IMG/VR virus record: IMGVR_UViG_3300014911_000002
Coordinates: 1 to 64,000 of that record
Source of the DNA: a virus
DNA: 64,000 bases
Reading direction: 5' to 3' (one strand)
The notes below the pieces were generated by a model. The model saw only the letters and a list, made by a program, of their open reading frames with translations, had not been told where the DNA came from and did no database searches. Shown here piece after piece: positions 2,791-29,449 of this stretch (position 1 is its first letter; every line of letters begins with the position of its first letter). The position numbers were made by a program, and so were the translations under genes.

Positions 2791-5700
2791 ATGCCTAGTC
2801 TTGGGGAAATTTCTGTAAGAATTGTCCTCGACTTCCGAGGAATTACTGCACAGCTTAAACAATTTCGTAAATTACTCCAGACTGGGTTACAGCAAATCTC
2901 TAAAGAAATCTCCACTGGTTTTAAACCTCTTGGAGTAGCTCCTAAAGAATTTCAAAAAGCCTTTCAGAATATTGCTAAGACGGCTGCGAAACAAAGTCAG
3001 AAGACAGCTGCTATTGTTGGGAAAGGCGGAAGGAGAATAGGCAAGGCATTTGAAGAGGCTGCTCAGCCTATTTATCTTGGCTTCCCACGTGCAATGGATA
3101 CTATGCATCGACAGGTTTCTCGCTCTCTCTTTTCGGTTTTAAGGGATATGCTATCGTTCAGAAACATGATTACGAAAATAGTTCACTATATTACATTCAC
3201 CATCGGTGTGCAGATGGTCATGGGAATAGTTCGTGGTATAGGTCAGGTTACTGAGTCAACAAAGGAATTTCAACGTGCCATAGTAAACGCAGCTACTATC
3301 TCAGGATATCTTGGCGGTGCATTCGAAAAGGTTACTGCACACCTAGAAAAACTTGCTTTAGAACTTTCTAAGGAAACTGTCTTTTCGGCAGTAGATGTGG
3401 CCAAAGCATTTTATCAAATTGCATCAGCTGGTTACGACGTTTCGAAATTAACCAAACGCGAGCTCATACCAATATTGAATTATGCTGCGGCTACTCAAAG
3501 CACGCTTGAAGATGCCACTTATGCAGTATTAACCGCACTAAAAGCATTCAGACTAGATATCTCTGAAACTTCACACGTAGTTGACGTCTTCACTGCAGCT
3601 ATAACTAAATCATTCCAGAATTTCGATAGGCTTAGAGAAGGGATGAAATACGTAGGCGCAACTGCTGGCTCTCTAAATCTTTCAATAGAGGAAACAGTCG
3701 CAGCGTTATCAGCCTTGGTTGATCGTGGATTGGAAGGCTCGCAGGCAGGACAAAGACTCAATATGATACTCACAAGATTATTGAAGCCAACGGACCAGGC
3801 TGCAGAGACCCTGGAGCAGCTAGGTTTGACAGCGGATGATGTGAATCCCAAATACTATGATTTGGTTGAAATCTTATATAAATTGAAGGCTGCTGGTTTT
3901 GGTGCAGCAGAAGCATCCGCAATGTTCAGAGCTAGAACCGCAGCATCTGCTGTAGTGTTAGTACAGTCTGCTGATGACATCGCTCGTTTTACCGCGATGC
4001 TAGAACGTTCACAAGGCATAACCGAAACCGTTGCGGAATATCAAGAACGAACTCTATGGGGTGCACTAACTAAGGTTTCAAATGCTCTTCAAGCAGCATC
4101 GATTACTCTCGGCAAATCCTTGATTCCTGTCTTCGAATGGGCTGCTGGTGTAATCAAAGCTAAAGTTGTTCCTATGATTGAATCGGTGGCAAATGCATTC
4201 AAGTACTGGAAAGGCACAATATTCCCTGCCATCAAACTTCTTATTTCAATGCTTATCGGCTATAAAGCTGCGATGTTTGCGGTTTCAATCATGAGCAAAT
4301 ATGTCACAGGATTACAAATACTACAAGCAACAGCAATGACGAAAAATGCTCAAATAACGCTTCAAGCTGCTTTAGCACAACGTCTGTATGCTGAAGCTCA
4401 ACGCGAATTGGCAATAATGACTGGTCAAGCTACAGCTGCACAACTTGCCTTAAATGCAGCAATGTTGGCCAATCCCATCACTCTTCTCCTCATAGCTATT
4501 GGCTCTCTCGTATCTTATATGGTATTATTCGGGAGTGAAACGAAAAAGGCAAAGGACCCGCTTGAGGATCTTAACACATCTATGCTTGATGCAATTAGGT
4601 TTACCGAAGATTGGCAAAATACCATTAAAGATTTTGCTAAGGCTAATTATTCTGACGTATTTAAGAAAGAGGAGGATGCTATATCAGGATTCCTCCAAAG
4701 AATAGGTTTAAAGCATAAAGGAACAGCAGAGTTGGCCAGAAGGCTCTGGCGTGATATGGCAAAAGATCCCGAAGCCTATGCGGATGTGATAGAAGAGATT
4801 GCAAAAAGAACTGGATATTCCGTTGAAGAGATAAGGCAAGCATTAGCGGGTAAGACGACATTGCCAACATCAGTTTGGGGAAAGGGCGCAATTGAACAGG
4901 CAAGGCAGTTTTCCAAAGAGGTGAAAATAGCTCAAGATAGCATAGGAGCATTAGAAGATATGTTTACGACTACCCTTAGAGGCGTTTCAACTTCTTTTGC
5001 CCAAATTTCAGGAGAACTTTTAGCATTTCAGAATTCTATCCAGGAAATAACAGATGCTACAGAAGAATTTAGAGAAGCTGAAAACGAGTTAAACAGGACT
5101 TTGGCAGAATCCCCAGATAATCTGCGTGCCATAAAAGACGCAACCGAACGGTATGTAAACGCTCAATCCAAATTAGATCTAGTCTCAAAGAGGTTTTTAT
5201 CATCGCTCAAGGATTTGGTTCAGTCAATTCGTGAACTTCCAGGTCCTTACGATGAGGTCGTAGGTATTATGGAAGATATGGCAGATGCTATGCATAGCGC
5301 ATTTATTGCCGAGAAAGACCTTGCAGCAGCCGCAAGAGAAGAAGAAGAAGCGTTATCAAATCTTGCCAATACTCTTGCTTTATACGGTGCACAATCTTCA
5401 GAAGCAAGAAATGCCGAATATAAGTTGTTTGCAGCTATGAAGCAAAGAATGCAACTCGAAGACGAATTGGCATCTGCAACAAAAGACTATGAGGCTGCAC
5501 AACGAAAGCTTAATTTCATTATGGAACACGGTATAGAAGTTCAAACAGAATCTGGAACAACGACCATAAAACTAACATCAGTTCAGAAAGATCTTTTGGA
5601 TATGACAGAAAAACTAATACGATTAAGGGAACAATATATTCGTGCAGAGGCCGAATATATTGAACTTCAGGCTAAACAAAACGCATACCAATATCTTCTT

Positions 5701-8112
5701 GAGAAAGGAAGTAGGATATTAGCTGAGAAGAGTAAGATTTTGTTCGAGGCAAGGAAAAAACTTTATGATATAGAATATAAGCTTTACAAATTAAGAGTCG
5801 ATGAGGATGAACAACTAGGAGACCTCTTTAAGAAACTGGCAAAAGAGGGTTTCATAAATCAAAGCGTGGTCGATACTTACAAGGACATGATGTTGGCTAA
5901 AGGCGAACTCCTTAAACTTCATCCAAAGCTTGCAGCTATTTATGGGCGATTGAATGAAGAACAGAAAGAGCTCGTTGAGAATTATATTAAAACAGGTAAG
6001 GGTTTAGAGAGGCTTACATTCCTCACTGATGATGAGATAAATACAGTTGTAGCATTCAGAAATGCACAGCTTAGATTTTCTTCTGCAACTGAAGATCTTC
6101 GAAATGTTCTCACTCCTTTGATTGGTGATCTCATAGACATAGGTGCTGTATCCTCCGATGTTGCAAAATCCTATTTCGATCTTATAGACAATACGGGTGA
6201 GATAATCACATATAATCTTGAGTTACTTAAAATCAATGATGATCTCTCCCAGAGCATTGGTGATATAATTGGTGTGGTTGCCAGATTAGCTAGAGCATTA
6301 CAGGATGAGGCTGATGAAACCGATAGTGTCGCAGATGTCTATGATGAATTAGTTAAACAGCTTGGTCTTTCCAAGGAATTCGGTGACGATTATGGTGGCA
6401 TCTTAAAGACCCTCAACAAACTATACGGTACATCATATCGCTCGATTTCAGACTTCTCTGATGCTCAGTTATTAGTTGCTGCCGCATTAGTTAAAGTGGC
6501 CAAGAATGCCGGAATATACGAACGTGGTATGACCGCTGCAGAGATTGCAACTAGATTGCATATCTCTTCCCTTAACGAACTCACAGATGCAGCGCAATAT
6601 GCGTATGACAGTGAAGATTCTATGTATTCCATCACCACTAAACTCCAAGAAGCAGCAAATACTCTTAGCGGGACCTTCTCTGAGATGAATAAAACACTCA
6701 ATGAATTGGTTAACACCTATTATCGGTCTAATAAAGATCTTTTGCAATTTGCTCTTACTTGGGATTTTGCAGACACGCTTATGAATCGATTTGGCGGAAA
6801 TTTCGAAGAATTGGTTGCCACCATGCGAGCACAGGATCTTTCATTCACCATAGATATGATGACAAAATGGGATGGTAAGGATTGGGACGCATTTATTACT
6901 TCATTAAGCGGTGATAGAAGAGATGCGTTTTTCAAAGCCGTTGCTATGATGTCTGGTACATCAGTAGATATAGTCTCTAAATGGGATGGCGATGACTGGA
7001 AGGACTTTATTTCAGGTCTATCCTCAGATAAGATGAAGGCCATTTCATCTATCTTAACCTCAGAAGACTTGAATTTCAATATCGAAGCATTGCTGCAGGG
7101 AGTGCCACTTGCAGAACGAGTTAGGACGCTTCCGGATGATTTGAAAAACGAATTAAAACAAAGATTATCAACTTTGACCGATATCCCAGCTATCAATATT
7201 GATGCTCTGCTTCAAGGCGAAGCTGATTGGGCTAAGGGCATAAAGCCAGAACAGGTTCAAAAAGTCCAGCGGTTTTTAGACTCTCTTCCTGTAGATGAGA
7301 GAAGCCTTAATATTAAACCTACTATAGATACCACTAAAAGCACCGAAAAATCTTTGTGGGACGCAATATGCGATCTATTTTCTGGTATAGGAGCAACCTT
7401 CAAAAGGGGCATAGGTTGGGTAATAGATGTTATTGTGAACACAGTTACAGGCGGAGGCGGCGGTAGAGGCGGAGGTGGTGGAAGAGGTGGACGAGGAGGT
7501 GGAGGAGGGGAAAAACCACCACCTCCACCGCCGCCAAAACCAGAGGATAAAGGGAAGGTCGCTGGCATCTGGATAGAATGGAAAGATACTGATAAGCGAA
7601 CTGCAACTGGTCAAAAAATTTATGAAGCGACTTTTATAGCAAAATCCACAACTGGTTTATCCCATATCATAGGCAAGGCTGTCGGCACTACCGACGAGGT
7701 ACATAAAATTCACCAGGAACTTATAGGAAAATATGTCAACAAACCGTGGCCATGGGCATTCGGTGGTATCGCCGGACTTGCAATGAAAGCAGCCTCATTT
7801 AAACGTAGTGCGATAGTCAAAGGACCAGTGAATGCTTTAATTGGTGAAGCTGGACCAGAAGCTGTTATACCACTTGCAGGAAGATATAGAAGATATGGTG
7901 AGAAACTTCTTAGAGCAATCATCCCACGATATTTCCCAGACTTGCGAATGCAATATGGAAGCGTAGTTGAACGGCCTTTACCCGAGCGCATCACCACGAA
8001 TAGAGAAGAATTTATCATCAGAGGACCAATAATTATTGAGCACGTTGCAAGTCTAGAAGATTTTGTAAGTCAGCTAAAGTTTAGAGCCAGAGCTGCCGCT
8101 CCCACATCATGA
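2791..8112 (+). CDS. Tail tape measure protein (TP901-like core)
   Basis: 1773 aa, Ala/Leu-rich and helical; FSAVDVAKAFYQIASAG, GMKYVGATA, EETVAALSALVDRGLEGSQAGQRL, ANPITLL and C-terminal GEAGPEAVIPL motifs. Confidence 0.95.
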   Translation: MPSLGEISVRIVLDFRGITAQLKQFRKLLQTGLQQISKEISTGFKPLGVAPKEFQKAFQNIAKTAAKQSQKTAAIVGKGGRRIGKAFEEAAQPIYLGFPRAMDTMHRQVSRSLFSVLRDMLSFRNMITKIVHYITFTIGVQMVMGIVRGIGQVTESTKEFQRAIVNAATISGYLGGAFEKVTAHLEKLALELSKETVFSAVDVAKAFYQIASAGYDVSKLTKRELIPILNYAAATQSTLEDATYAVLTALKAFRLDISETSHVVDVFTAAITKSFQNFDRLREGMKYVGATAGSLNLSIEETVAALSALVDRGLEGSQAGQRLNMILTRLLKPTDQAAETLEQLGLTADDVNPKYYDLVEILYKLKAAGFGAAEASAMFRARTAASAVVLVQSADDIARFTAMLERSQGITETVAEYQERTLWGALTKVSNALQAASITLGKSLIPVFEWAAGVIKAKVVPMIESVANAFKYWKGTIFPAIKLLISMLIGYKAAMFAVSIMSKYVTGLQILQATAMTKNAQITLQAALAQRLYAEAQRELAIMTGQATAAQLALNAAMLANPITLLLIAIGSLVSYMVLFGSETKKAKDPLEDLNTSMLDAIRFTEDWQNTIKDFAKANYSDVFKKEEDAISGFLQRIGLKHKGTAELARRLWRDMAKDPEAYADVIEEIAKRTGYSVEEIRQALAGKTTLPTSVWGKGAIEQARQFSKEVKIAQDSIGALEDMFTTTLRGVSTSFAQISGELLAFQNSIQEITDATEEFREAENELNRTLAESPDNLRAIKDATERYVNAQSKLDLVSKRFLSSLKDLVQSIRELPGPYDEVVGIMEDMADAMHSAFIAEKDLAAAAREEEEALSNLANTLALYGAQSSEARNAEYKLFAAMKQRMQLEDELASATKDYEAAQRKLNFIMEHGIEVQTESGTTTIKLTSVQKDLLDMTEKLIRLREQYIRAEAEYIELQAKQNAYQYLLEKGSRILAEKSKILFEARKKLYDIEYKLYKLRVDEDEQLGDLFKKLAKEGFINQSVVDTYKDMMLAKGELLKLHPKLAAIYGRLNEEQKELVENYIKTGKGLERLTFLTDDEINTVVAFRNAQLRFSSATEDLRNVLTPLIGDLIDIGAVSSDVAKSYFDLIDNTGEIITYNLELLKINDDLSQSIGDIIGVVARLARALQDEADETDSVADVYDELVKQLGLSKEFGDDYGGILKTLNKLYGTSYRSISDFSDAQLLVAAALVKVAKNAGIYERGMTAAEIATRLHISSLNELTDAAQYAYDSEDSMYSITTKLQEAANTLSGTFSEMNKTLNELVNTYYRSNKDLLQFALTWDFADTLMNRFGGNFEELVATMRAQDLSFTIDMMTKWDGKDWDAFITSLSGDRRDAFFKAVAMMSGTSVDIVSKWDGDDWKDFISGLSSDKMKAISSILTSEDLNFNIEALLQGVPLAERVRTLPDDLKNELKQRLSTLTDIPAINIDALLQGEADWAKGIKPEQVQKVQRFLDSLPVDERSLNIKPTIDTTKSTEKSLWDAICDLFSGIGATFKRGIGWVIDVIVNTVTGGGGGRGGGGGRGGRGGGGGEKPPPPPPPKPEDKGKVAGIWIEWKDTDKRTATGQKIYEATFIAKSTTGLSHIIGKAVGTTDEVHKIHQELIGKYVNKPWPWAFGGIAGLAMKAASFKRSAIVKGPVNALIGEAGPEAVIPLAGRYRRYGEKLLRAIIPRYFPDLRMQYGSVVERPLPERITTNREEFIIRGPIIIEHVASLEDFVSQLKFRARAAAPTS

Positions 8113-9566
8113 CGTCATTTTCAATTGTTTTCAATCCAGGTGAAGAAAACGAACTTACCATTTCCTCTGGAGATAATCTAGAATCTCTCACTATAAACCA
8201 TTCCAACGAGAGCTACTATAAAGATGCAGAAGTCGCGCTTTATAACATACCAGATTTTGAGGAGAAGGTATCTATAAATTCGCGAGTCAATATTTATATA
8301 GATGGGCATCTAGAATTCTCTGGATATGTTTCAAGAATACAGACAAGAATTAGCGGAGTAAAGATCTTCTATCTTCAATGTATTGGACGTACATACGATC
8401 TCTGGCGATTCATGATATCTGGCGACACTTATTTCGAAAAAAAATATTCAGCTTATATAGTTTCATCTCTTGTCGCCCAATATTGTTCCGGGCATGGAAT
8501 CTATATAACACCACCGGATGTCAGGGAAACGGATGGAAGCTATATTGAATACATTGATGTTTCCTTGATGGCCGTTGGGGATGCGATAGCACGCATAGCA
8601 AAATTCGATGGTCATCATTTCTTTGTTGATGAATATGGAAAACTTAGATATTATACCGTATCATCCTCTGTTCAATTTACCGTAACAACATCAGACATTC
8701 TTGAAATGGAACCCCTAGAGCATTCAGATGATTATATTAGAAATGACGTCTTAGTGGTTGGTTCTCAACAATACGAACAAATTATTCCTGATCAACTCCC
8801 ACCCTTTACATCTGGGAATTGGATTTGGATATCATCAGCAACAACATTCGTTGCACAGCAATTTGGAGTGCCCGCACTAGAAACCAATAGATTAACCTCA
8901 TTAAAACTCCGTGCTACGAGAAGCAAAGGCAAGAATACTCCACTGTATCTTGCGGGAGATATCCGAAATGATAATTCCGGAGAACCTGGATCCATAGTTG
9001 CATCCTCCAATACTATAACCTGGCATGGTGTCGATATTCAGGCTGACCCTTCTGGTACTTGGCTTCCATTCTATACATTTTCCAATCATCTATATCTTTC
9101 AGGAGGCGCAGCATATTGGGCAGTATTCCACTTCCCCGGTGCTAGCTCAAACATTTGGTGGAAACTTTCATATTCTCCTCTTCCGGACTATACAGATGTG
9201 CTTTCATCAGAACCAACATTATATGGAACTTGGGATTATGGAAGTATCGATTACGGTGATGTGGTCTATGATTCTGGGAATAATGAAGTAGATTTTGTTG
9301 CTAAACCAAGAGGATATGCATCAGCCAATACGTTCTTACAAGACATCACACCACGAACTCGTTATTTCTACCTTCCATCATCCTTATTTACTGATGAAAT
9401 TAATTTCCTTGCCAAAGTACGGATAGACAAATATGAAAGCGGGAATAAAGGCCTTGGGAATTACAGGCGCACCGATGATGGTAGATATAGACCAAGATTT
9501 ATGATCGGTTTATGTGATATGTCCCATCCAGCAAAACCAATGTTTGGATTTGAATTCGATCTATAG
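8109..9566 (+). CDS. Baseplate hub/tail protein, N-terminal half
   Basis: Directly after the TMP (ATGA overlap). FSGYVSRI, IARIAKFDGHHFFVDEYGKLRY and IRNDVLVVG hub motifs, followed by an incomplete beta-sandwich insert. Confidence 0.8.
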   Translation: MTSFSIVFNPGEENELTISSGDNLESLTINHSNESYYKDAEVALYNIPDFEEKVSINSRVNIYIDGHLEFSGYVSRIQTRISGVKIFYLQCIGRTYDLWRFMISGDTYFEKKYSAYIVSSLVAQYCSGHGIYITPPDVRETDGSYIEYIDVSLMAVGDAIARIAKFDGHHFFVDEYGKLRYYTVSSSVQFTVTTSDILEMEPLEHSDDYIRNDVLVVGSQQYEQIIPDQLPPFTSGNWIWISSATTFVAQQFGVPALETNRLTSLKLRATRSKGKNTPLYLAGDIRNDNSGEPGSIVASSNTITWHGVDIQADPSGTWLPFYTFSNHLYLSGGAAYWAVFHFPGASSNIWWKLSYSPLPDYTDVLSSEPTLYGTWDYGSIDYGDVVYDSGNNEVDFVAKPRGYASANTFLQDITPRTRYFYLPSSLFTDEINFLAKVRIDKYESGNKGLGNYRRTDDGRYRPRFMIGLCDMSHPAKPMFGFEFDL

Positions 9567-9574
9567 GTGAAATT

Positions 9575-9781
9575 ATGGCGAGAGGGATTGAGCATAGAGA
9601 TGTTGGAGATCAGCTTTCAAAGACTGAATGGCTTGAAGGTGCTCACTACTTTATGAGCGGTACATCTTTTCCCGCTTCTCCAGCTGAAGGTGATGTATTT
9701 TATAAAACGGATGAGCATGTGTTGTATATTTATGATGGAACTTCCTGGAAGCCACTTGGTCCCACTGCTGTATATGGCTAA
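9575..9781 (+). CDS. Small tail-fibre-motif protein
   Basis: GGTGA RBS; SGTSFPASPAEGDVFYKTDEHVLYIYDGTSW matches the common phage fibre motif P-x-x-P-x-x-GD-x-[WF]...Y-x-Y-x-G-x-x-W. Confidence 0.7.
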   Translation: MARGIEHRDVGDQLSKTEWLEGAHYFMSGTSFPASPAEGDVFYKTDEHVLYIYDGTSWKPLGPTAVYG

Positions 9782-9791
9782 TTGAGAGAAT

Positions 9792-10271
9792 ATGGGATAT
9801 TCTTGGACTCCTATAAATAAAGGGGATCTTATAAAAGCTGCACACTTCAACGAAATCAAAGATAATCTCGAAGACCTCTATGATGAATTGCAATTGGATT
9901 CTCCATCCTGGACGTACTTTCCAGTTAGTGTTGGTCAGATTATCAAGAAAGACCATATTCAGGAATTAAGAGATAAGACCGATTATGCCGATGATATGAA
10001 TTACTGTCGTGCTCACGATGGCACTTACAACAATAGTATCGATTCTGGCTATAAATACAGCGTTGATTCCGGCGACAACTACAGTTATAAGGGAAGCTAT
10101 AATAGCGGTGTTGATAGCTCCTACAACTCAGCTGTTCATACAAATAATAATGACACAGTCGATTTAGATGAGTATTCTACGGTATATAACGGAAATGAAG
10201 CCTACGTATTGCTTGTAAACAAAAATCCCTACGATTCCGATACGTGGTCACCCTATTATAATGGCAATTAG
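9792..10271 (+). CDS. Repeat protein A, putative radical SAM substrate
   Basis: Two WTxxxxGxxIKxxHxxEL/IxD motifs, then a Cys and a 4/8-periodic Y/S/D/N/G-rich tract. Confidence 0.75.
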   Translation: MGYSWTPINKGDLIKAAHFNEIKDNLEDLYDELQLDSPSWTYFPVSVGQIIKKDHIQELRDKTDYADDMNYCRAHDGTYNNSIDSGYKYSVDSGDNYSYKGSYNSGVDSSYNSAVHTNNNDTVDLDEYSTVYNGNEAYVLLVNKNPYDSDTWSPYYNGN

Positions 10272-10279
10272 GTGATAGT

Positions 10280-10648
10280 ATGGCTTTTACCTGGACGCCA
10301 ATAGATGTTGGCGATGTTATTAAGAAAGCTCATGTTATCGAACTTCGCGACAATATAGATTATATTTCTGATAATCTCGCATGCGTTACAGATAAGGATT
10401 CAGTCCATAGCTCTTATGACTCAAGCTATAAATCGGGATATAACACAACAGTTGATAATTACGATAAAGGAACCTATAAGAGTGATCACAAAACTGGTAA
10501 CTACTGGGGTCATGAAGCCACTATATATTCAAACAATGATATAAATGAATATGGAACCCATGATGAATCCGCACTGTCCGCACCTGATAAAGGAACCTAC
10601 AACGGAGGTTATTATGTCGACTGCTCGGGATATAATTCACCAGTTTAG
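10280..10648 (+). CDS. Repeat protein B, paralog of A, putative radical SAM substrate
   Basis: GGTGA RBS; WTPIDVGDVIKKAHVIELRDNID, then a Cys and a 4-periodic tract. Confidence 0.75.
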   Translation: MAFTWTPIDVGDVIKKAHVIELRDNIDYISDNLACVTDKDSVHSSYDSSYKSGYNTTVDNYDKGTYKSDHKTGNYWGHEATIYSNNDINEYGTHDESALSAPDKGTYNGGYYVDCSGYNSPV

Positions 10649-11942
10649 AGAAATTCAAGCACTTGAGTTGTTCACATCTGCATTATGTCCGCTCAATTGT
10701 AGGTACTGCTATATTCCTAAATGTTCTGCAATGGCGAACATACATAACGACATAATTCAGAATACCTTAACAAATGAACAAACTAGAATCGTAAAAGAAA
10801 AATTTCCAAATTTAAGAACGATATCGTTATGGGGTGCAGAACCTACAGTATCATTAGAGAATTTACTGCCAAAATTGAAAAAATTTGCAGAATCTATAAA
10901 TAAGCTAGATTCGATCACTTTTTCCACAAATTTTGTAAATATAAAACCTATTAAACACCTATTGAAGGTATTCGAAGATATAGATATAGAATTAAAAATT
11001 CAAATATCTCTTGATGGGCCAGACTTTATCACCGATTATAATCGTGCACCAGGTCTAACTAAGCGAATTCTTGAAAACATTGACGAGCTCATTGATTTTG
11101 CAAAACAATTGGAATTCAAGAGAAAACCATTAATTCATTTTAAATCAACAATCACTACTGAAAATATGCGATATATGTTAAATAGAAATCTAATAGAGGA
11201 ATATTTTTCATTTTGGGATGAGTTGTTTTCATCAATAAAAGAGAAAGAATCCAATATGGCATTTATTCTCAAATGCTATCCAACACTTGAGGTTCCTGGA
11301 CGATATACAAAATTAGACGGTGAGACGTTTGCTAATTTCCTCAAACAAGTACATAGTATTGGCCAACATTCCGACTACACCTTTAGACTAATTCGACTTG
11401 TTCAATTTAGTAAGAACCTATATGCAAGACACCATGAATTCACCTGTTCAGCAATGGATTCGAATTTAGGCCTAGATGGGCTTACAGTCCATCCATGCCA
11501 CAGGACATTTTTCCTAGATCGTCAAGAATACTTAGATGCAATACTTAGGATGGATGCATATCAAAATTGGGATGTCTCACTTCTTGATAAAGGACTTATT
11601 GACGCAGCCAACAAAAACTTTGTGGTCCCAATAAAAGATAACGATTTTTCACGGTTTGCCTACCTTGGTCGAGCCTATCATGATTTCTTTCGATTTCGTG
11701 TATCTATTACTTCAGCGATCATTCACGAAATGGCACTCGCTGGAGAAGTCGGCAAATACTATTTAAGATTACCTGAGCTAAGGGAACTATTGAGTATATT
11801 TCTTCATGCAGCAGTCGGATGCCCAGTCGAATCGATATTGAATTCAGGCTCTATCCATCTTCCAATCCTTTCTTTGATTAGACTATTTGGAAATGGAGCT
11901 TTTATCGAGGTGATTAAAGATGCGGTTAATACCCTTGGATGA
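10614..11942 (+). CDS. Radical SAM enzyme with partial SPASM/twitch domain
   Basis: CPLNCRYC, WGAEP, ISLDGP, TCSA...HPCHR; GGAGGT RBS precedes the ATG at 10614. Confidence 0.9.
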   Translation: MSTARDIIHQFREIQALELFTSALCPLNCRYCYIPKCSAMANIHNDIIQNTLTNEQTRIVKEKFPNLRTISLWGAEPTVSLENLLPKLKKFAESINKLDSITFSTNFVNIKPIKHLLKVFEDIDIELKIQISLDGPDFITDYNRAPGLTKRILENIDELIDFAKQLEFKRKPLIHFKSTITTENMRYMLNRNLIEEYFSFWDELFSSIKEKESNMAFILKCYPTLEVPGRYTKLDGETFANFLKQVHSIGQHSDYTFRLIRLVQFSKNLYARHHEFTCSAMDSNLGLDGLTVHPCHRTFFLDRQEYLDAILRMDAYQNWDVSLLDKGLIDAANKNFVVPIKDNDFSRFAYLGRAYHDFFRFRVSITSAIIHEMALAGEVGKYYLRLPELRELLSIFLHAAVGCPVESILNSGSIHLPILSLIRLFGNGAFIEVIKDAVNTLG

Positions 11943-13227
11943 TGATGCAAAAGTTCTTGTTAATTTTCTAAATCGCACATTTCTTTCAGGATTTAAACAT
12001 CCTGAAAAAATGCCAAATTATAGCACAATAGAGCTTATAATAGACCCCTATTGCAATTTGGCGTGCAAATATTGTTATCTCAACAAATATGGAAAAGAGC
12101 TGAATCCAAATATTTCGATTTCTTCAATCCAAGAAAACTCGAAGAAGATAATAGATTTCCTTAAGGATTCAGGTTTTAAGGGAAGAATTGAGATATTCGG
12201 AGGAGAACCTCTTATAAAAGACTATGTATTAGATATAATAGAACGGCTTTTAATAGAGACAGACGCTAAGGAAATAGTAGTCCCATCTAATATGACTTTC
12301 CTATTGAATATGCAGAAAGATAAGAGAGTTAGAGAATTAATTGAGTTAGGAAAGGATCTTGGAAGGCCCTTCCTCATATCCTCATCCTGGGACGGAAAAT
12401 TAATGCAGGCGATCAATCGACCATTCAAAGTGAAAAAATCTGTGGATTTTGATGCTTGGGCGGATAAAATTTTTGAATTTGCAACTCACTATAAAATTGG
12501 ATTTCACCCGATGATATATTCAAATAATATAGAACAATGGTTTGATAATTTTTTATGGTTTCAGAAAAAATTCCAAGAGTTCAACATACCATTTAGCAGC
12601 CTTTATCTTTTGGAAGTACGAAACCCTGAATGGACGGTTGAACAAATCAAAGCATTCATGACCTTTATTGATAATGTTGTTAAATGGACATTTCACACGC
12701 CTTGCAAATCGCAAAAGGAAAATTTTCTCGAGTTTTTATTCGAAAAAAGAGGGTATAATTTACTATCCGCACCATTTTCAACGATAGGAAGAGGTATTGG
12801 TTGCTCCATTCAATCTGCACTGCACATTCGAGTTAATGATCTTGCCATAGTGCCATGCCATAGAACGTCTTATGAGCATTTTGTTGCTGGATATCTCAAG
12901 TTTGACGGAAAAAATGTCTATGTCAAATCGAAAAACATAGTCCCATATTTAGCCATACATACGCTTTCTGCAAAAACACTTCCTATGTGCGAACACTGTC
13001 CTCTCAATTCTATGTGTTCATTTGGATGTTTAGGTGCACAGTATGAAACTACAGGCGATTTATTTACGCCTATCCCAACAGTATGTATGCTTGAGCACGG
13101 AAAAGTTTTTCAACTTATCAAGAGCTTTATGGATATTAATGTACTAAACGATATAAAGGCTAGGGTTTCTCCTGATAAAAAATCAGCCATAGATTTATTT
13201 GAGGGGTATTATGAACGAGGTGTTTGA
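11920..13227 (+). CDS. Radical SAM/SPASM peptide-maturase-like enzyme
   Basis: CNLACKYC, FGGEP, GCSI...VPCHR, CEHCPLNSMCSFGCLG...PTVC. Confidence 0.92.
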   Translation: MRLIPLDDDAKVLVNFLNRTFLSGFKHPEKMPNYSTIELIIDPYCNLACKYCYLNKYGKELNPNISISSIQENSKKIIDFLKDSGFKGRIEIFGGEPLIKDYVLDIIERLLIETDAKEIVVPSNMTFLLNMQKDKRVRELIELGKDLGRPFLISSSWDGKLMQAINRPFKVKKSVDFDAWADKIFEFATHYKIGFHPMIYSNNIEQWFDNFLWFQKKFQEFNIPFSSLYLLEVRNPEWTVEQIKAFMTFIDNVVKWTFHTPCKSQKENFLEFLFEKRGYNLLSAPFSTIGRGIGCSIQSALHIRVNDLAIVPCHRTSYEHFVAGYLKFDGKNVYVKSKNIVPYLAIHTLSAKTLPMCEHCPLNSMCSFGCLGAQYETTGDLFTPIPTVCMLEHGKVFQLIKSFMDINVLNDIKARVSPDKKSAIDLFEGYYERGV

Positions 13228-13699
13228 ACGAGTTAAAGGTGAATTAAAAGCTAGAAAATTTATTCCGTTGATACTCTCGAAGGATTTCATCAAAGAACTT
13301 TGGGGGACTGTATCGGATATTGAAAAAGAAATCAGAAAGGCGATTGAAGGAGAGAAGATCGAAAAAGACGATAAGATATATGAGTCAATCAAGAAATTTA
13401 GGGATATTTTTCGGGAGAGAATTGTGAGGGAACCGCTTTCTCCAAATCTTGCTAAATTTATACGAGATGTTCTCACTATATTTTACAATTATCTTTCAGC
13501 AGTCGATGATCAAGAGATGAAGGAAGAAATGTTAATACTAGTAAGATTATTAGATGGTTTTCTAACGTTGAATGAAGCTATAGCGATTTCTAGAGAACTA
13601 ATTGACTATCTCCGCAGGATGATGTACTATTCACCACCATATGTTGAACTTTCCAAGCATTATCTTGAAACGCTCCTTAACGAATGTGAAGAGCCATAG
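13211..13699 (+). CDS. Helical hypothetical protein, last gene of the rSAM cassette
   Basis: GAGGGG RBS; overlaps the rSAM2 stop; no recognised motif. Confidence 0.65.
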   Translation: MNEVFERVKGELKARKFIPLILSKDFIKELWGTVSDIEKEIRKAIEGEKIEKDDKIYESIKKFRDIFRERIVREPLSPNLAKFIRDVLTIFYNYLSAVDDQEMKEEMLILVRLLDGFLTLNEAIAISRELIDYLRRMMYYSPPYVELSKHYLETLLNECEEP

Positions 13700-13709
13700 C
13701 TATTAATTC

Positions 13710-14573
13710 ATGACTGATGGTGGATTTCCTTATACATTTCCATTCTTCTTCGAGGATTCTTTTCAGAAACAAGTGAGAGCATTCGTAATGGTAGATCTAA
13801 CAGAGCATGATACAGCAAAACCCCAGGTCAAATTTGGTGCATGGCAACCAACGGGCTCTAGCACATACAGATGTATGATATCGGGCCTCAAACTTTATTT
13901 TTACATCGATGAAACATTGAAAGACACAATTAACCTTTCAGACCTCACCCTAGATCAGAATATAAAATTTGGACGAGGGTCGCCGCATAATTTCAATACT
14001 CTCGTATTCCGCATGATTGATACAGCGTATTCCTCTCAAGGAGTTGTTGCCTCCTCTGGCGCGTTCCCTTGGATATCCGGTGCCCTATGGGAATATTCAG
14101 TCGAAGATCTTGCTCAGGGTTTGAAAGTTTCCTACGATAGTGGCTCTTCTTGGACTCTACATCCCGATAAAAAACTCGATCTCGTATTAGGTTGGAATTA
14201 TGATTACGTCACAGGACGATATAAGGATTCTGGTTCGATTCAAACTTATGGTCCTCACTTTTATAAAGTAAGTGAACCGCTTATAACCACAAGAGATGAT
14301 GCAAGAACCCTAGCAAGAAGATATGTCGAGACTTACAAAGATGGAATTAAAACAGGTTCGGTGACAATTAAAGGCAAAACAGATATTTCTCTTTCAAATA
14401 AATTCAGGCTTTATCTCCCAGAAGTTGGAATCAATGAGACATTAGTTATAGCATCATATCAGCAACGGATAGATAAGAATGGTTTCACTACAAGAATCAA
14501 TTATGGTACAGTTCCATATGATATTGCAGCTAAAGTTGCACGGCTTGAGCGTAAGATAGAGTCTCAAATATAA
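13710..14573 (+). CDS. Baseplate hub/tail protein, C-terminal half (alternative start 13788)
   Basis: DSGSIQTYG...ITTRDDARTLARRYVETYK...GSVTIKG...GFTTRINYG is a typical hub C-terminus; same reading frame as 8109..9566. Confidence 0.78.
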   Translation: MTDGGFPYTFPFFFEDSFQKQVRAFVMVDLTEHDTAKPQVKFGAWQPTGSSTYRCMISGLKLYFYIDETLKDTINLSDLTLDQNIKFGRGSPHNFNTLVFRMIDTAYSSQGVVASSGAFPWISGALWEYSVEDLAQGLKVSYDSGSSWTLHPDKKLDLVLGWNYDYVTGRYKDSGSIQTYGPHFYKVSEPLITTRDDARTLARRYVETYKDGIKTGSVTIKGKTDISLSNKFRLYLPEVGINETLVIASYQQRIDKNGFTTRINYGTVPYDIAAKVARLERKIESQI

Positions 14574-14675: not shown

Positions 14676-15644
14676 ATGGCCTTGGAGCCTTCATCAGGAT
14701 GGTCTTACTATAAACAAATTGATATTTCTGATGCTGCTAATGTTAGTGCTAACTATCAGATGAGATTAACAGTTTATGCTGGAGAAGGTGAGGATGATAC
14801 CGCTGATGGAATAATTTATTGCGATAATCATTGTGAGAATTTTCCGAATGACATTCGTTTTGGCACTAGAAATGACCCATCCATCGCCACTCAACTTGCT
14901 CAATGGATTGAGGAGAGTGATGCTACGAGTGCAACTATCTGGGTGAAATGCCCAAGTGATGGAAGCGATACATTCTACATGTTCGTTGGGAATTCATCAG
15001 CAAGTCAGTATAGCGATGGTGAAAATACATTTATTTTCTTTGATGATTTTGAAAGCTATGATACAGATAAATGGCAAACAGATGCCGGCTCTCCAGAAAT
15101 ATCTGGCAACACCTGGTTGAGACTTAAGAACGGAGTCAAAGTGAAGACAGTTGATACTTTCGTTCGACCAAAGCGTTTTTTCATGAAAGTGAAGATTAAG
15201 CACATTGAGTCTAACGATGATGATTTCCATCTTATGCTTGCAAACCAATATAGAAATAACAGAGATGATGATATTGATTTTGACTTTGATACAAGCCCAA
15301 TAGCGTTATATCTGATGGTTCATAATGACAATAGTGGAGGTTATAGAAACATAAGTTACACATCAGATACAATATACAAATGCTTCGCAAAATGGAAGAG
15401 CGATGAAGTTAAAATGTATATAGATGGTAAATTAAAATACGCACAATCATCTCCCATTCCCGATGAGGCTTTAAATATTCGACTTGAAGATAGATATGGA
15501 AATGGTGACGAGGCTTATATTGACTATGTAGCAATTTTAAAATATGCATCAACAGAGCCTGCATGGTCATATTTCAGTCCGTGGATAGATATGTCGGAAG
15601 TTCAATCTAATCTACCATTTTTGAATATAGCCTTTAAAAAATGA
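14676..15644 (+). CDS. DUF2341-domain protein with lectin/LamG-like C-terminus (virion)
   Basis: WSYYKQIDI, NYQMRL, FPNDIRF, LAQWIE, ATIWVK, TFIFFDDFE motifs. Confidence 0.8.
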   Translation: MALEPSSGWSYYKQIDISDAANVSANYQMRLTVYAGEGEDDTADGIIYCDNHCENFPNDIRFGTRNDPSIATQLAQWIEESDATSATIWVKCPSDGSDTFYMFVGNSSASQYSDGENTFIFFDDFESYDTDKWQTDAGSPEISGNTWLRLKNGVKVKTVDTFVRPKRFFMKVKIKHIESNDDDFHLMLANQYRNNRDDDIDFDFDTSPIALYLMVHNDNSGGYRNISYTSDTIYKCFAKWKSDEVKMYIDGKLKYAQSSPIPDEALNIRLEDRYGNGDEAYIDYVAILKYASTEPAWSYFSPWIDMSEVQSNLPFLNIAFKK

Positions 15645-15970: not shown

Positions 15971-16356
15971 CATTTGGACCAAAATTAATAAGAATTTATT
16001 ACTCATCCCTTTCCATTCCACATTATATCGATGCAACCTGCACCCGTTTAGAAATCTCCAACTATTCTGTTATATTCGAAACTATTTTAGATAAAAATCA
16101 AAGGGATAAATTATACAACCATATTACTCCAGGTGCTGTGTCGACTCTCTATCAAATACTCGGAAAACCAGTTTTCTACGATACAACCCTTAGAGGTCTT
16201 AATACTATAATGCTTGCACCTATTGCTGGTACAAGAATCAATGATGCCTACGATAATATCATCTTATATGTGAAAAACTATTCTGAGTTTATCGACCCAG
16301 CAAATAATTTCCATATAAAGATAGAAGGATACATTTCGGGTGAGTTTTATGGTTAA
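15967..16356 (+). CDS. Hypothetical tail-region protein, paralog of the previous gene
   Basis: ITPGAVSTLYQILGKPVFYDTT...VKNYSE...FHIKIEG. Confidence 0.7.
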   Translation: MTFGPKLIRIYYSSLSIPHYIDATCTRLEISNYSVIFETILDKNQRDKLYNHITPGAVSTLYQILGKPVFYDTTLRGLNTIMLAPIAGTRINDAYDNIILYVKNYSEFIDPANNFHIKIEGYISGEFYG

Positions 16357-16687
16357 ACTCTATCAATATAAAGCTAAAATTTTATCAGTTTATGATGGTG
16401 ATACCTGTACAGCCTTGGTTGATTTGGGATTTAATACTTTTAGGAAAATAAAGATTAGACTAGTGGGAATAAACACTCCAGAATTAAAATCCAAGGATCT
16501 CAGAGAACGGCTCAAAGCAAAAGCAGCTAGAAATAGGCTAAAGGAATTGGTTCTTGGGAAGGATGTCTATATCATCTCTCATGGTAAAGGGAAATATGGA
16601 AGATGGTTGTGTGATATGTATTTGCAAGATGGGACGCACATCAATAAATTGCTTTTAAAGGAGGGTTATGCTGTCAAATATCCGTAA
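16349..16687 (+). CDS. Thermonuclease (SNase-like)
   Basis: VYDGDT, IRLVGINTPE, GKYGRWL, INKLLLKEGYA. Confidence 0.92.
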   Translation: MVKLYQYKAKILSVYDGDTCTALVDLGFNTFRKIKIRLVGINTPELKSKDLRERLKAKAARNRLKELVLGKDVYIISHGKGKYGRWLCDMYLQDGTHINKLLLKEGYAVKYP

Positions 16688-17126
16688 AGTTCTTTGTAAC
16701 TTCCTCAAGTGTTATGATATTAACGCCTCTCCTTTCGAATATACAAGAACTTATGATGCTTCTGAAATCTTAACTCTTCTAAGGTCGGAATTTGATACTG
16801 GAAGAATCTATCTTTCGGATACAGTTTATAAGACAGTACCAAAGGAAACACTTAGAAAATTTCTCTCAAAAGATTCTACAAATTTCTTCCTCTACACTCC
16901 AGAATTCTATGACTGCGATGATTTTTCCTATCGCCTTATGGGTCAACTTTCTACTCCCGGTTATGGAGCTTTACCATTTGGAATCATTTGGGTAATGACT
17001 TCTCGTGGTGGTCATGCACTAAATGTCTTCATCGATGATCAAGAGGAGATTTGGTTAGTTGAGCCACAGAATGATAAGATTTTTAAAATGCCAAAAGACT
17101 GGAAGGCATATATCATTATGATGTAA
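16668..17126 (+). CDS. Papain/transglutaminase-like Cys-His protein
   Basis: YDCDDFS...GGHALN...VEPQND. Confidence 0.65.
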   Translation: MLSNIRKVLCNFLKCYDINASPFEYTRTYDASEILTLLRSEFDTGRIYLSDTVYKTVPKETLRKFLSKDSTNFFLYTPEFYDCDDFSYRLMGQLSTPGYGALPFGIIWVMTSRGGHALNVFIDDQEEIWLVEPQNDKIFKMPKDWKAYIIMM

Positions 17127-28762: not shown

Positions 28763-29449
28763 TCACCTGATAATGCATCTCTGAACGTAATATTCTGCAC
28801 GTTTTTTAATCATTTGTAACTCATCGTCTGTGAATTCTCTAATGTTCTTTGCACGTTTCGGATTCAATGCTTTCGTAAATTTAAACCGCTGGAGAGCATA
28901 TAATCTTGCTCCCTCGATATATTTCGCTATCTCCTCGATATCATCCATATCAAGAATTCCTCTGCCGATGGTCGTTCTAAATTCATAATCTAGATTGCTG
29001 TTCATCAACAGCCTTATGCTTTCCTTTATATCATTTATATTTACATCAGCACAAGCGATGTCTCGGTATTTCCCAAATGGACCTTTTATATCCATAGCTA
29101 TGTAATCGACTAAATCCTGTTCGATAAGTTCCTCCAGCATTCTAGGATTAGAACCATTTGTATCAAGTTTGATTAGAAAACCCATCTCCTTGATTTTCTT
29201 CAGGAAAGAAGGGAGATCTTCTTGCAATGTTGGCTCGCCACCTGTTATTACAACACCACTGATTTTCCTACGACGTCTGCCCAAGAAATCTAATATCTCT
29301 TTCTCGGAATAGACACCATCTTTTTGAGCTATAAGTTCTGGATTATGACAATAAAAACAACGGAAATTACATCCCTGAGTGAATATAACCGCTGCAATCT
29401 TCCCTGGATAGTCAATCAGGGAGGTCTTAAGAAGGCCGCCTATTCTCAT
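28763..29449 (-). CDS. nrdG: Anaerobic ribonucleotide reductase activating enzyme
   Basis: SLIDYPG, GCNFRCFYCHNP, TGGEPT, KLDTNG; adjacent to nrdD. Confidence 0.93.
   Translation of the reverse strand: MRIGGLLKTSLIDYPGKIAAVIFTQGCNFRCFYCHNPELIAQKDGVYSEKEILDFLGRRRRKISGVVITGGEPTLQEDLPSFLKKIKEMGFLIKLDTNGSNPRMLEELIEQDLVDYIAMDIKGPFGKYRDIACADVNINDIKESIRLLMNSNLDYEFRTTIGRGILDMDDIEEIAKYIEGARLYALQRFKFTKALNPKRAKNIREFTDDELQMIKKRAEYYVQRCIIR

What the first reader, a model, noticed from the sequence alone, without database searches (positions are those of the whole stretch)
9792..10648. Putative substrates: conserved leader-like motif, one Cys, then a 4-residue register of D/N/K/H/Y instead of Cys
Seen: the motif WT(x4-6)G(D/Q)xIKxxHxxE(L/I)(R/K)D occurs twice in A and once in B. 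After a Cys, A reads C-RAHD-GTYN-NSID-SGYK-YSVD-SGDN-YSYK-GSYN-SGVD-SSYN-SAVH... and B reads C-VTDK-DSVH-SSYD-SSYK-SGYN-TTVD-NYDK-GTYK-SDHK-TGNY-WGHE... Every fourth residue is mostly D/N/K/H/Y, often preceded by Tyr, His or Val. Inference: this resembles a Cys-free version of CXXX-repeat rSAM targets, implying different chemistry (e.g. aromatic-to-Asp/Asn/Lys crosslinks or epimerisation) installed up to about 20 times. The N-terminal motif could be an enzyme-recognition leader, a virion-anchoring motif, or both.
Basis: partly seen in the sequence, partly recalled or inferred. Interest (0 to 1): 0.8.

Follow-up and report, generated by a model that had tools for sequence, protein, structure and literature searches.

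The report
Viral tetrad-repeat proteins with radical-SAM maturases
Two small tail-module proteins of an uncultured virus have a very conserved head domain and a hypervariable tail built of strict four-residue units, and such proteins always sit beside two radical-SAM enzymes that probably modify them, a chemistry on virus parts that nobody has tested.

Summary
ORF A (9792-10271) holds the W-T...G-x-x-I-K-x-x-H-x-x-E-L-R-D motif twice and ORF B (10280-10648) once. After a near-invariant Cys, both run in a four-residue register: small, small, Tyr/Val/His, Asp/Asn/Lys/Tyr. The register exceeds shuffles in 26 of 26 relatives, with no DNA tandem repeat under it.

A leader profile finds 263 clusters among 1.84 billion proteins. 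Of 124 tails tested, 116 are 4-periodic. Cys in tails sits at tetrad position 4 in 116 of 139 cases, which supports the "Cys replaced" reading.

Synteny is strict. All 18 leader-found loci with enough flank carry the paired radical-SAM genes. In the reverse search, 33 of 44 distinct viral loci with the SPASM enzyme have a leader protein within 6 kb.

The cassette is A, B, a twitch-like rSAM, a SPASM rSAM and a helical-bundle protein. It lies inside the tail operon here, and beside tail-fibre genes elsewhere.

My reading: these are protein-sized rSAM substrates that stay on the virion. The chemistry is unknown.

No Pfam or NCBIfam model, GenBank phage or paper found covers it. This scan has met kindred phage rSAM/repeat cassettes on other DNA, but not this family. 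I class it as a new variant of a known kind.

The parts
9575..9781 (+). p68, a small protein directly upstream of A. Its C-terminal GD.FY...YIYDG..W motif is of the kind found at the N-termini of tail fibres.
   Evidence: Weak matches to Pfam DUF2793 (E 0.043) and to PHROG tail-fibre and unknown families (E 1.6e-4 to 6.5e-3). It is 60-87% identical in the near relatives, where neighbouring proteins are 39-61%.
9792..10007 (+). A, leader domain (aa 1-72). It holds two copies of the W-T...G-x-x-I-K-x-x-H-x-x-E-L-R-D motif (nt 9804-9863 and 9909-9974) and ends in D-Y-A-D-D-M-N-Y-C.
   Evidence: AlphaFold2 with 110 sequences gives pLDDT 91-98 for residues 1-70, with helices at 16-32 and 53-68. It is 81-92% identical in the ten near relatives. 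A profile of this part finds 263 clusters at E <= 1e-3.
10008..10271 (+). A, tetrad tail (aa 73-159, about 21 four-residue units) plus the stop codon.
   Evidence: It is only 21-38% identical among relatives whose leader is 81-92% identical. AlphaFold2 pLDDT is 45-63.
10280..10384 (+). B, short leader (aa 1-35). It holds one copy of the motif (nt 10292-10351) and ends in D-N-L-A-C.
   Evidence: It aligns to the second half of A's leader (hmm positions 39-143).
10385..10648 (+). B, tetrad tail (aa 36-122) plus the stop codon.
10545..11942 (+). rSAM1, a radical-SAM enzyme with CX3CX2C (C48, C52, C55) and only three further conserved Cys (C301, C318, C426), which is twitch-like. Its real start is probably the ATG at 10614, overlapping the end of B.
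   Evidence: Pfam Radical_SAM at E 2e-6, 28.5 bits, just under the 29.5 cut-off. NCBIfam N_Twi_rSAM scores 48 bits against a cut-off of 170. Cys conservation was read in 37 sequences.
11920..13227 (+). rSAM2, a radical-SAM/SPASM enzyme with CX3CX2C (C45, C49, C52) and seven invariant SPASM Cys (C295, C313, C357, C360, C366, C370, C389).
   Evidence: Pfam Radical_SAM 37.2 bits and Fer4_12 29.6 bits. NCBIfam PapB model at E 1.5e-15, 57 bits against a cut-off of 340, matching 34-382 to 2-328 of 330. Alignments. There are 654 relatives at E <= 1e-5.
13199..13699 (+). p166, a conserved accessory protein predicted as a six-helix bundle. Its role is unknown.
   Evidence: An ORF of 100 aa or more lies directly after rSAM2 in 40 of 43 rSAM2 ORFs (34 distinct sequences). 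phmmer recognises 19 of these 34 as p166-like. AlphaFold2 pLDDT is 89.6. No informative fold match.
2791..8112 (+). Context: the tape-measure protein, which opens the same tightly packed operon.
   Evidence: Pfam PhageMin_Tail at E 5e-38. Gene overlaps or gaps of 10 nt or fewer link 2791 through 14573.
8109..9566 (+). Context: a 485-aa tail or baseplate protein of no named family.
   Evidence: No Pfam or PHROG hit. It is 41-50% identical and syntenic in relatives.
13710..14573 (+). Context: a 287-aa protein after the cassette, followed by a DUF2341 protein (14676-15644) and a lectin-like protein (16668-17126).
   Evidence: Weak YQBQ-like hit (E 0.085). DUF2341 at E 1.7e-18 and Agglutinin_C at E 7.5e-9.

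Best explanation
A and B are protein-sized substrates of a five-gene viral cassette. The cassette is A, B, a twitch-like radical-SAM enzyme (rSAM1), a SPASM radical-SAM enzyme (rSAM2) and a helical-bundle partner (p166), embedded in the tail operon.

Each substrate has two parts. The first is a small folded N-terminal domain: two loop-helix repeats in A and one in B. It is the most conserved part of the whole module. I take it to be the handle that the enzymes hold (inferred), and probably also the part that docks the finished protein on the tail tip or baseplate (inferred).

The second part is a hypervariable tail of 20-45 strict tetrads: small, small, Tyr/His/Val, then Asp/Asn/Lys/Tyr/Cys. 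A near-invariant Cys at the junction sets the register (shown).

The two enzymes are proposed to work along the tail in steps of four residues, installing one modification per tetrad at the position 3/4 pair (inferred). Position 4 takes residues with an unbranched beta-carbon and is the place where Cys is tolerated. So I think hydrogen abstraction at position 4 is the most likely chemistry, followed by a C-C, C-O or (for Cys) C-S link to a neighbouring side chain. A second activity, such as epimerisation or valine cyclopropanation, may act on the Val-Asp tetrads. This step is a guess.

No leader protease or exporter is present. The modified protein would therefore stay whole, as a stiff, protease-resistant and fast-evolving host-contact filament of the virion (inferred).

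My odds for the separate steps: substrate relation about 0.8; virion component about 0.6; modification at every tetrad about 0.5; any named chemistry 0.3 or less.
For: Synteny:
- Of 25 distinct loci found through the leader, 15 carry both rSAM genes. Three more carry the start of rSAM1 before the contig ends. The other 7 end 4-808 bp after A. That is 18 of 18 informative loci.
- In reverse, I examined 44 distinct viral loci found through rSAM2. Of these, 35 have a full rSAM1-like ORF, 33 have a leader-profile hit within 6 kb, and 24 have two.
- The parts stay together in three different gene orders.

Leader and core:
- The leader is 81-92% identical in the ten near relatives, where the tail is 21-38% and the neighbouring proteins 39-61%.
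- Across the family the tails are 4-periodic in 116 of 124 cases. They start in phase directly after the Cys in 105 of 124.
- Cys is at position 4 in 116 of 139 cases and Val at position 3 in 402 of 648.
- There is no DNA tandem repeat.

Enzymes:
- Both have an invariant CX3CX2C. rSAM2 has seven invariant SPASM Cys and rSAM1 has three more conserved Cys.
- All their best named matches are peptide maturases (PapB, GggB, CefB, HxsB, SCIFF), every one far below its cut-off.

Tail context:
- The cassette sits in one packed operon after the tape-measure protein.
- I tested 10 large neighbouring ORFs of divergent loci. The ORFs directly upstream of the A-like gene match tail-fibre, tail-spike or virion-structural PHROGs in 4 loci. 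Portal or adaptor genes lie a few kb away in 2 more.
- Family members exist with DUF5000/F5_F8-type-C modules (P0133), or with a long insert between the two leader repeats (P0110), fused to the leader and tail.

The virus also encodes an anaerobic ribonucleotide reductase, which fits oxygen-sensitive enzymes.
Against: - No chemical or proteomic evidence exists for any modification, or for presence in virions.
- No RiPP-recognition (PqqD-like) domain was detected. Both enzymes have only about 35-45 residues before the cluster motif.
- 11 of 44 rSAM2 loci had no leader-profile hit. Several of these hold 4-periodic ORFs without a recognisable leader, or ORFs broken under table 11.
- Folds like the leader appear, at weak scores, in other viral proteins with Ig, fn3 or lectin domains and in rudivirus proteins. 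The domain may therefore be a general structural module and not an enzyme handle.
- The best-kept property of the tetrad is smallness at positions 1-2, not a fixed reactive residue. Positions 3 and 4 tolerate many residues, which is unusual for side-chain cross-links.
- Ser/Thr-rich tails could instead be glycosylated or simply disordered.
Confidence: 0.55

Rival explanations
1. Only Cys is modified. That means the junction Cys, plus any Cys that happens to sit at position 4, for instance as a PapB-type Cys-to-Asp/Asn thioether across C-x-x-x-D/N. The Cys-free tetrads are then an unmodified structural or metal-binding repeat whose D/N/H/Y ligands recur every four residues.
For: The junction Cys is kept in at least 90% of 110 aligned family members, with Asn at -2 in 93% of 124. 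The residue at +4 is Asn or Asp in 55%. rSAM2's best full-length named match is the ranthipeptide maturase PapB, 34-382 to 2-328 of 330. Position 4 is filled by residues that can bind metals.
Against: Two different rSAM enzymes and a partner protein for one or a few thioethers seems excessive. The +4 Asp/Asn frequency after the junction Cys (55%) is no higher than at later position-4 sites (46-54%). B-type leaders end in A-C followed by V-T-D-K, which is not C-x-x-x-D. A register kept over 20-45 units with no DNA repeat argues for selection on every unit, although structure alone could impose that.
Confidence: 0.15
2. A and B are true RiPP precursors. The leader is cut off and the modified tail, or pieces of it, is released as a diffusible product such as a toxin, a signal or a host-surface blocker. 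It is not built into the virion.
For: A conserved leader with a hypervariable core is the classic RiPP layout. TvgA/TvgB is a precedent for a SPASM enzyme working on a four-residue repeat that may be cut into small products (PMC9062424, abstract and passages read).
Against: No protease or exporter was recognised in 9575-14573, nor among the few cassette neighbours of other loci that I scanned. The cassette lies inside the tail operon. Family members carry the same leader and tail at the end of a 753-aa and a 960-aa protein; P0133 has lectin-like DUF5000/F5_F8-type-C repeats. The leader is a folded 70-residue domain.
Confidence: 0.12
3. The tails are unmodified and are simply disordered or glycosylated fibre segments. 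The two rSAM enzymes act on something else: another virion protein, a cofactor or a nucleic acid. They travel with A and B only because both belong to the tail-fibre module.
For: There is no direct evidence of modification. Ser/Thr fill about 44% of positions 1 and 2. Viral rSAM genes are often filed as metabolic genes, for example ahbD and bchE in PMC13452462 (passages read).
Against: Linkage survives three different gene orders and sequence divergence down to about 25-30% identity. The enzymes' named relatives are peptide maturases. The Cys bias to position 4 and the fixed phase after the junction Cys are hard to explain for a disordered linker.
Confidence: 0.12

Closest known systems
HXS antiphage system (HxsA effector with His-x-Ser repeats, rSAM enzymes HxsB and HxsC, small protein HxsD). 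Source: PMC13128918, abstract and section 9 read.
   Same: It has the same parts list: a protein-sized repeat substrate, two different radical-SAM enzymes and a small partner protein that binds one of them. The substrate is matured as a protein, not as a short peptide. Both window enzymes weakly match the HxsB model (E 7e-7 and 1e-8).
   Different: HXS is bacterial, defensive and periplasmic. It has a 3-residue period, five repeats and one mapped +8 Da site, and its N-terminus is cleaved. Here the system is viral and in the tail module, with a 4-residue period, 20-45 units, a different leader and no cleavage evidence. HxsB model scores are 28-34 bits against a cut-off of 370, so these enzymes are not members.
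Ranthipeptide system PapA/PapB (freyrasin; NCBIfam NF047865). The C-x-x-x-D substrate motif is recalled, not from a call.
   Same: It uses a SPASM maturase. It is the best full-length named match of rSAM2. Reactive residues recur in a register of four, and Asp is a partner residue.
   Different: rSAM2 scores 57 bits against a cut-off of 340. A and B have a single Cys before the repeats, so repeated thioethers are impossible. The substrates here are proteins of 120-960 aa in viruses.
Pfam PF27846 tSAM_targ_Cxxx_rpt together with NCBIfam NF033640 N_Twi_rSAM. These are database-defined families for which I found no paper.
   Same: The ESM Atlas lists, near A, viral clusters in which 23-25% of members carry PF27846 (feature score 0.86; TM 0.54 over 133 residues, a lead only). 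rSAM1's best NCBIfam match is N_Twi_rSAM. In the present family Cys sits at the same tetrad position as Asp/Asn.
   Different: No run of five or more Cys at four-residue spacing occurs in any of the 83 loci, and no run of three or more in any of the 152 family proteins held. rSAM1 scores 48 bits against a cut-off of 170. PF27846 is not in the Pfam copy at hand, so membership could not be scored.
TvgA/TvgB poly-cyclopropylglycine system. Source: PMC9062424, abstract and passages read.
   Same: A SPASM-family rSAM acts many times on a Cys-free four-residue repeat (TVGG), changing one residue per repeat by -2 Da. Val is the second commonest residue at tetrad position 3 here.
   Different: Tvg is bacterial, and its cluster has an oxygenase and peptidase/transporter genes. 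Its repeat is invariant, whereas here it is hypervariable. No TvgB-type model appeared in the shown rows of the NCBIfam lists for either enzyme.
CrpA/CrpC of Methanococcus voltae. Source: PMC13692751, abstract read.
   Same: It is a precedent that a SPASM rSAM cross-links a full-size protein substrate encoded next to it.
   Different: Its substrate is Cys-rich, its links are ranthionine, and it is cellular. I did not compare the sequences.

Membership tests
rSAM/SPASM RiPP-type maturation system (general) | Radical-SAM CX3CX2C cluster motif in the enzyme(s) | tested here: met
   Invariant in 37 rSAM1 and 39 rSAM2 sequences. Pfam Radical_SAM scores 37.2 bits for rSAM2 (above cut-off) and 28.5 bits for rSAM1 (just under 29.5).
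rSAM/SPASM RiPP-type maturation system (general) | SPASM domain with seven Cys for two auxiliary clusters | tested here: met
   Met for rSAM2: C295, C313, C357, C360, C366, C370 and C389 are invariant in 39 of 39. rSAM1 keeps only three extra Cys, which is twitch-like.
rSAM/SPASM RiPP-type maturation system (general) | Precursor with conserved leader and variable core, encoded beside the enzyme | tested here: met
   Leader 81-92% against tail 21-38% identity in the ten near relatives. Adjacency holds in 18 of 18 informative loci.
rSAM/SPASM RiPP-type maturation system (general) | RiPP recognition element (PqqD-like) on the enzyme or a partner | tested here: inconclusive
   No such Pfam or NCBIfam hit for rSAM1, rSAM2 or p166. 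p166 is an all-helical bundle with no informative fold match.
rSAM/SPASM RiPP-type maturation system (general) | Leader protease and/or exporter in the cluster | tested here: not met
   None was recognised in 9575-14573. This fits a product that stays a whole protein.
rSAM/SPASM RiPP-type maturation system (general) | Demonstrated post-translational modification of the core | not testable with these tools
   This needs mass spectrometry of co-expressed protein.
Ranthipeptide PapA/PapB (NF047865) | Enzyme reaches the model's cut-off | tested here: not met
   rSAM2 scores 57.3 bits and rSAM1 40.9 bits, against a cut-off of 340.
Ranthipeptide PapA/PapB (NF047865) | Repeated Cys donors in the core (recalled feature) | tested here: not met
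   A has no Cys in its tail after the junction Cys. B's tail has one, near its C-terminus.
PF27846 tSAM_targ_Cxxx_rpt / NF033640 N_Twi_rSAM | Cys at every fourth residue in the target | tested here: not met
   No run of five or more Cys at four-residue spacing in 83 loci, and no run of three or more in 152 proteins. Cys shares position 4 with Asp/Asn.
PF27846 tSAM_targ_Cxxx_rpt / NF033640 N_Twi_rSAM | Score against the family models | tested here: inconclusive
   PF27846 is absent from the local Pfam, so it could not be scored. For NF033640, rSAM1 scores 48 bits and rSAM2 28.1 bits against a cut-off of 170.
HXS system (HxsA-D) | HxsB model TIGR03978 reached; His-x-Ser repeats in the substrate | tested here: not met
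   28.3 and 34.2 bits against a cut-off of 370. The tails have period 4, not 3.
Triceptides (three-residue cyclophanes, aromatic-X-acceptor; definition recalled, and quoted in PMC9062424 as Aro-Xaa-Asn) | Aromatic residue two positions before the Asn/Asp/Lys acceptor | tested here: not met
   Aromatics peak at position 3 and D/N/K at position 4, so they are adjacent. Two positions after position 3 is position 1, which is S/T/A/G in 69%. Cyclophane-maturase models score 19-26 bits against cut-offs of 310-445.
Phage tail fibres with a C-terminal intramolecular chaperone (Peptidase_S74; motif recalled) | S-D-x-R-x-K motif at the C-terminal processing site | tested here: not met
   It is absent from A and B. 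It is present as the last 12 residues in 7 of 152 family members, with no Pfam hit for the two scanned.

The most novel reading that the evidence does not exclude
A large, unnamed family of virus proteins is enzymatically 'stapled' once every four residues, along 20-45 units, by a twitch/SPASM radical-SAM pair that does not need cysteine. That would be a new RiPP-like chemical class (C-C, C-O or stereochemical changes at an Asp/Asn/Lys/Tyr position) acting on a structural protein. Tailed viruses of anaerobic bacteria and archaea would use it to build hypervariable yet chemically hardened host-contact filaments.
Probability: 0.35. Interest if true: 0.85.

Novelty: new variant of a known kind. 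Interest (0 to 1): 0.72.

Why it matters
Radical-SAM peptide chemistry is known almost entirely from small secreted natural products of cells. If confirmed, this would be the same enzyme class acting on a virus's own structural proteins, in a repeat that lacks the usual cysteine, across hundreds of uncultured viruses.

It would give a new modification to characterise. It offers a new explanation for some of the "auxiliary metabolic" radical-SAM genes reported in viromes. It would also supply a natural scaffold whose sequence is free to vary while the enzyme keeps its register.

The test is ordinary: co-expression followed by mass spectrometry.

Tried and rejected
Family and literature look-ups that found nothing:
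- Pfam, NCBIfam and PHROGs gave no family for A or B.
- No NCBIfam family is shared by the 110 aligned members. The only hits were scattered FliH, HPr and ZrgA matches in 1-3 members.
- tblastn against 50,697 GenBank phage records found nothing for rSAM2 (E 1e-10) or for the leader (E 0.01).
- The one genome-contig scan found a single record, a Guaymas MAG contig identical in length to the IMG/VR contig of L005.
- Paper searches found no description of this cassette.
- The 'rSAM module' of Thermus phages Cumys and phiMa is a different trio, rSAM plus DUF483 (bioRxiv 10.1101/2024.08.14.607894, one passage read).
- The ANME-1 virome preprint mentions one unrelated rSAM gene (passages read).

Structure searches that were uninformative:
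- Foldseek against PDB gave no match at E <= 0.001 for the A model or for p166.
- VIA-align wide gave a best Z of 5.6 for A and 8.8 for p166. That is within the range the tool calls uninformative for helical models.
- BFVD gave only weak rows for the leader. The best was a rudivirus protein at E 0.14, prob 0.99, 67 columns, rmsd 2.7. I treat it as a lead.

Trimer test: three copies of A with its alignment scored 0.00 against a mark of 0.42. The verdict was 'no answer', and it is not used for or against.

Attempt to find cassette-free relatives: I searched with the protein downstream of the cassette. The single-protein scan found nothing. The alignment scan found only the same two contigs, plus one distant partial hit (L083) with no cassette gene within 8 kb upstream.

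Considered and dropped:
- Recent DNA slippage as the source of the period: no tandem repeat.
- The overlapping minus-strand and off-frame ORFs in 9617-10658: they have no relatives and lie inside the conserved frames.
Full report
**What is there.** The window is the first 64 kb of an 89,379-bp single-contig viral genome. On the plus strand a tightly packed operon runs in this order:
- the tape-measure protein (2791-8112; Pfam PhageMin_Tail, E 5e-38);
- a 485-aa tail protein (8109-9566);
- a 68-aa protein with a tail-fibre-type N-terminal motif (9575-9781);
- ORF A (9792-10271, 159 aa) and ORF B (10280-10648, 122 aa);
- two radical-SAM genes (10545-11942 and 11920-13227);
- a 166-aa protein (13199-13699);
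- further tail-module proteins (13710-14573; a DUF2341 protein; a lectin-like protein).

Gaps between these genes are 10 nt or fewer, or the genes overlap. The virus also encodes an anaerobic ribonucleotide reductase, which points to an anaerobic host.

Period-4 power beats 1000 shuffles in 26 of 26 proteins tested. A register defined only by small residues runs from the Cys to the C-terminus almost without slips. There is no DNA tandem repeat, so selection on the protein keeps the period.

**The family.**
- A word-indexed search found only six relatives.
- A profile of the 76-residue leader, searched against 1.84 billion representative proteins, found 263 clusters at E <= 1e-3 and 95 at E <= 1e-10. 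Most are 100-260 aa with the leader at the N-terminus.
- A pattern for the leader's end found 125 of the 152 sequences held. Of these, 124 had a tail long enough to test, and 116 of the 124 tails are 4-periodic at z >= 3.
- The tails begin in phase directly after the Cys in 105 of 124.
- Consensus tetrad: position 1 is S/T/A/G, position 2 is T/S/G/A, position 3 is Y/V/H/D/N/E, and position 4 is N/D/Y, then L, H, K and C.
- With the register fixed by small residues alone, Cys falls at position 4 in 116 of 139 cases, Val at position 3 in 402 of 648, and His at position 3 in 391 of 596.
- The junction Cys is itself position 4 of an x-N-Y-C tetrad, with Asn at -2 in 93%.

As a lead only, the ESM Atlas lists nearby viral clusters in which a quarter of members carry PF27846 'tSAM_targ_Cxxx_rpt'. 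That model is not in the local Pfam. No Cxxx array occurs in my loci or hits.

**Link to the enzymes.** Of 25 distinct loci found through the leader, 15 have both radical-SAM genes. Three break off inside the first one. The seven without end within 808 bp of A.

Going the other way, an alignment of rSAM2 relatives pulled 50 viral loci, 44 of them distinct:
- 35 have a full-length rSAM1-like gene;
- 33 have a leader-profile hit within 6 kb, and 24 have two.

Among the 11 without a hit, some hold 4-periodic ORFs lacking a recognisable leader. In others the genes are broken into pieces under table 11.

The five parts occur in three orders: A-B-rSAM1-rSAM2-partner, rSAM1-rSAM2-partner-A-B, and rSAM1-small ORF-A-B-rSAM2-partner. 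Linkage that survives rearrangement, and divergence to 25-30% identity, argues for function and not chance.

rSAM2 has 654 relatives at E <= 1e-5. Some lie on contigs up to 539 kb named after Parcubacteria, Paceibacterota, Aenigmatarchaeota or Deltaproteobacteria MAGs.

**The enzymes.**
- rSAM2 has CX3CX2C and seven invariant SPASM cysteines.
- rSAM1 has CX3CX2C and only three more conserved cysteines, which is twitch-like.
- Their named matches are all peptide maturases (PapB, GggB, CefB, HxsB, SCIFF, cyclophane formers), and every score is far below the curated cut-off.
- The only PDB sequence matches are CteB (E 3e-7) and ChlB (E 0.0087), each over the cluster-binding segment alone.

They therefore form families of their own.

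**The substrates.** AlphaFold2 with 110 sequences gives pLDDT 91-98 for residues 1-70 of A, two loop-helix repeats. The tail scores 45-63, which is not interpretable. B has one such repeat.

Among the ten near relatives the leader is 81-92% identical and p68 60-87%. The tail is 21-38% identical, and the tape measure, hub and both enzymes are 23-50%. The leader is thus the most constrained element of the module, and the tail the least.

That pattern fits a RiPP precursor. It fits a phage receptor-binding protein equally well. I think both apply, for four reasons:
- There is no protease or exporter in the cassette.
- The leader plus tail also stands at the end of a 960-aa protein with DUF5000/F5_F8-type-C repeats (P0133). 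It also flanks a long insert in a 753-aa protein (P0110).
- Genes directly upstream in divergent loci match tail-fibre, tail-spike or virion-structural PHROGs in 4 of the 10 neighbours I tested, and portal or adaptor genes lie close in 2 more.
- Seven of 152 members end in S-D-x-R-L-K-x-x-I-x-Y-L. From recall, this resembles the start of the self-cleaving chaperone domain of tail spikes.

**Mechanism.**
- Shown: the parts, their linkage, the register, and the position bias of Cys, Val, His and Asp/Asn.
- Inferred: the enzymes bind the leader, with or without p166, and work along the tail one tetrad at a time.
- Guessed: the chemistry.

Position 4 avoids beta-branched and small residues and accepts Cys. 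That suits hydrogen abstraction at an unbranched beta-carbon, followed by a link to a neighbour. The spacing rules out the standard three-residue cyclophane. Val-Asp tetrads could be handled like the TVGG repeat of TvgA, where a SPASM enzyme makes cyclopropylglycine (PMC9062424). Epimerisation is also possible.

The nearest system by architecture is HXS: two rSAM enzymes, a small partner that binds one of them, and a repeat protein matured whole (PMC13128918). None of the membership tests for named families was met.

**Standing.** This scan has already reported phage rSAM cassettes with Cys-repeat or His-x-Asp-repeat fibre proteins on other DNA. A look-up by sequence found this family only in this genome.

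I found no paper, no Pfam or NCBIfam model and no GenBank phage that covers it. I rate it a new variant of a known kind. The substrate relation is well supported and the virion role plausible, but the chemistry is unknown.

Noticed in passing
L069:1680-12039 (IMG/VR contig of 158,768 bp): One viral locus has six ORFs with a CX3CX2C motif, including rSAM1- and rSAM2-like ones. It also has a 246-aa protein starting with a His-x-Ser-like run (S-H-D-S-H-S-S-H-S-S-H-S-D-H...), which recalls HxsA of the HXS defence system.
   Followed up: no
L062, L065, L078, L080: In these viral loci the rSAM1- and rSAM2-like genes are split into several short ORFs under table 11. This could mean stop-codon recoding or decay. 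I tested no alternative code.
   Followed up: no
P0049, P0079, P0109, P0110, P0116, P0121, P0151: Seven of 152 family members end with S-D-x-R-L-K-x-x-I-x-Y-(L/F/I) as their last 12 residues. From recall, this looks like the first residues of the Peptidase_S74 intramolecular chaperone of tail spikes, without the rest of that domain.
   Followed up: partly
window 9575-10007 compared with 2791-9566 and 10545-14573: p68 and the A leader are 60-92% identical to their counterparts in the near relatives. The tape measure, hub, both rSAM enzymes and p166 are only 23-50%. These two short pieces are under unusually strong constraint, or were exchanged recently.
   Followed up: partly
window 7390-7500 (within the tape-measure gene): The tape-measure protein has a run of about 20 Gly/Arg residues followed by eight Pro near its C-terminal end. 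On the other strand this produces spurious Pro- and Gly-rich ORFs.
   Followed up: no
window 16340-17126 and 14676-15644: A staphylococcal-nuclease-like protein (E 1.4e-14), an Agglutinin_C lectin-like protein (E 7.5e-9) and a DUF2341 protein (E 1.7e-18) close the tail module. L001 holds three consecutive segments similar to the DUF2341 protein.
   Followed up: no
window 29446-31551 (- strand): A full-length anaerobic ribonucleotide reductase, NrdD with an ATP-cone (E 1.6e-209). This marks the host as an anaerobe.
   Followed up: no
L029, L051, L059, L061, L063: In one gene-order variant each of the two rSAM genes is followed by its own ORF of about 143-188 aa (177-211 aa after rSAM2 in L029 and L059). 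This hints that each enzyme has a dedicated small partner.
   Followed up: no
L009 = QNCD01000002.1: A 56,298-bp contig carrying the cassette, the same length as IMG/VR contig 3300014911_000533, is filed in a 'Candidatus Omnitrophota' MAG from Guaymas Basin. It is probably a viral contig binned with a cell genome.
   Followed up: no
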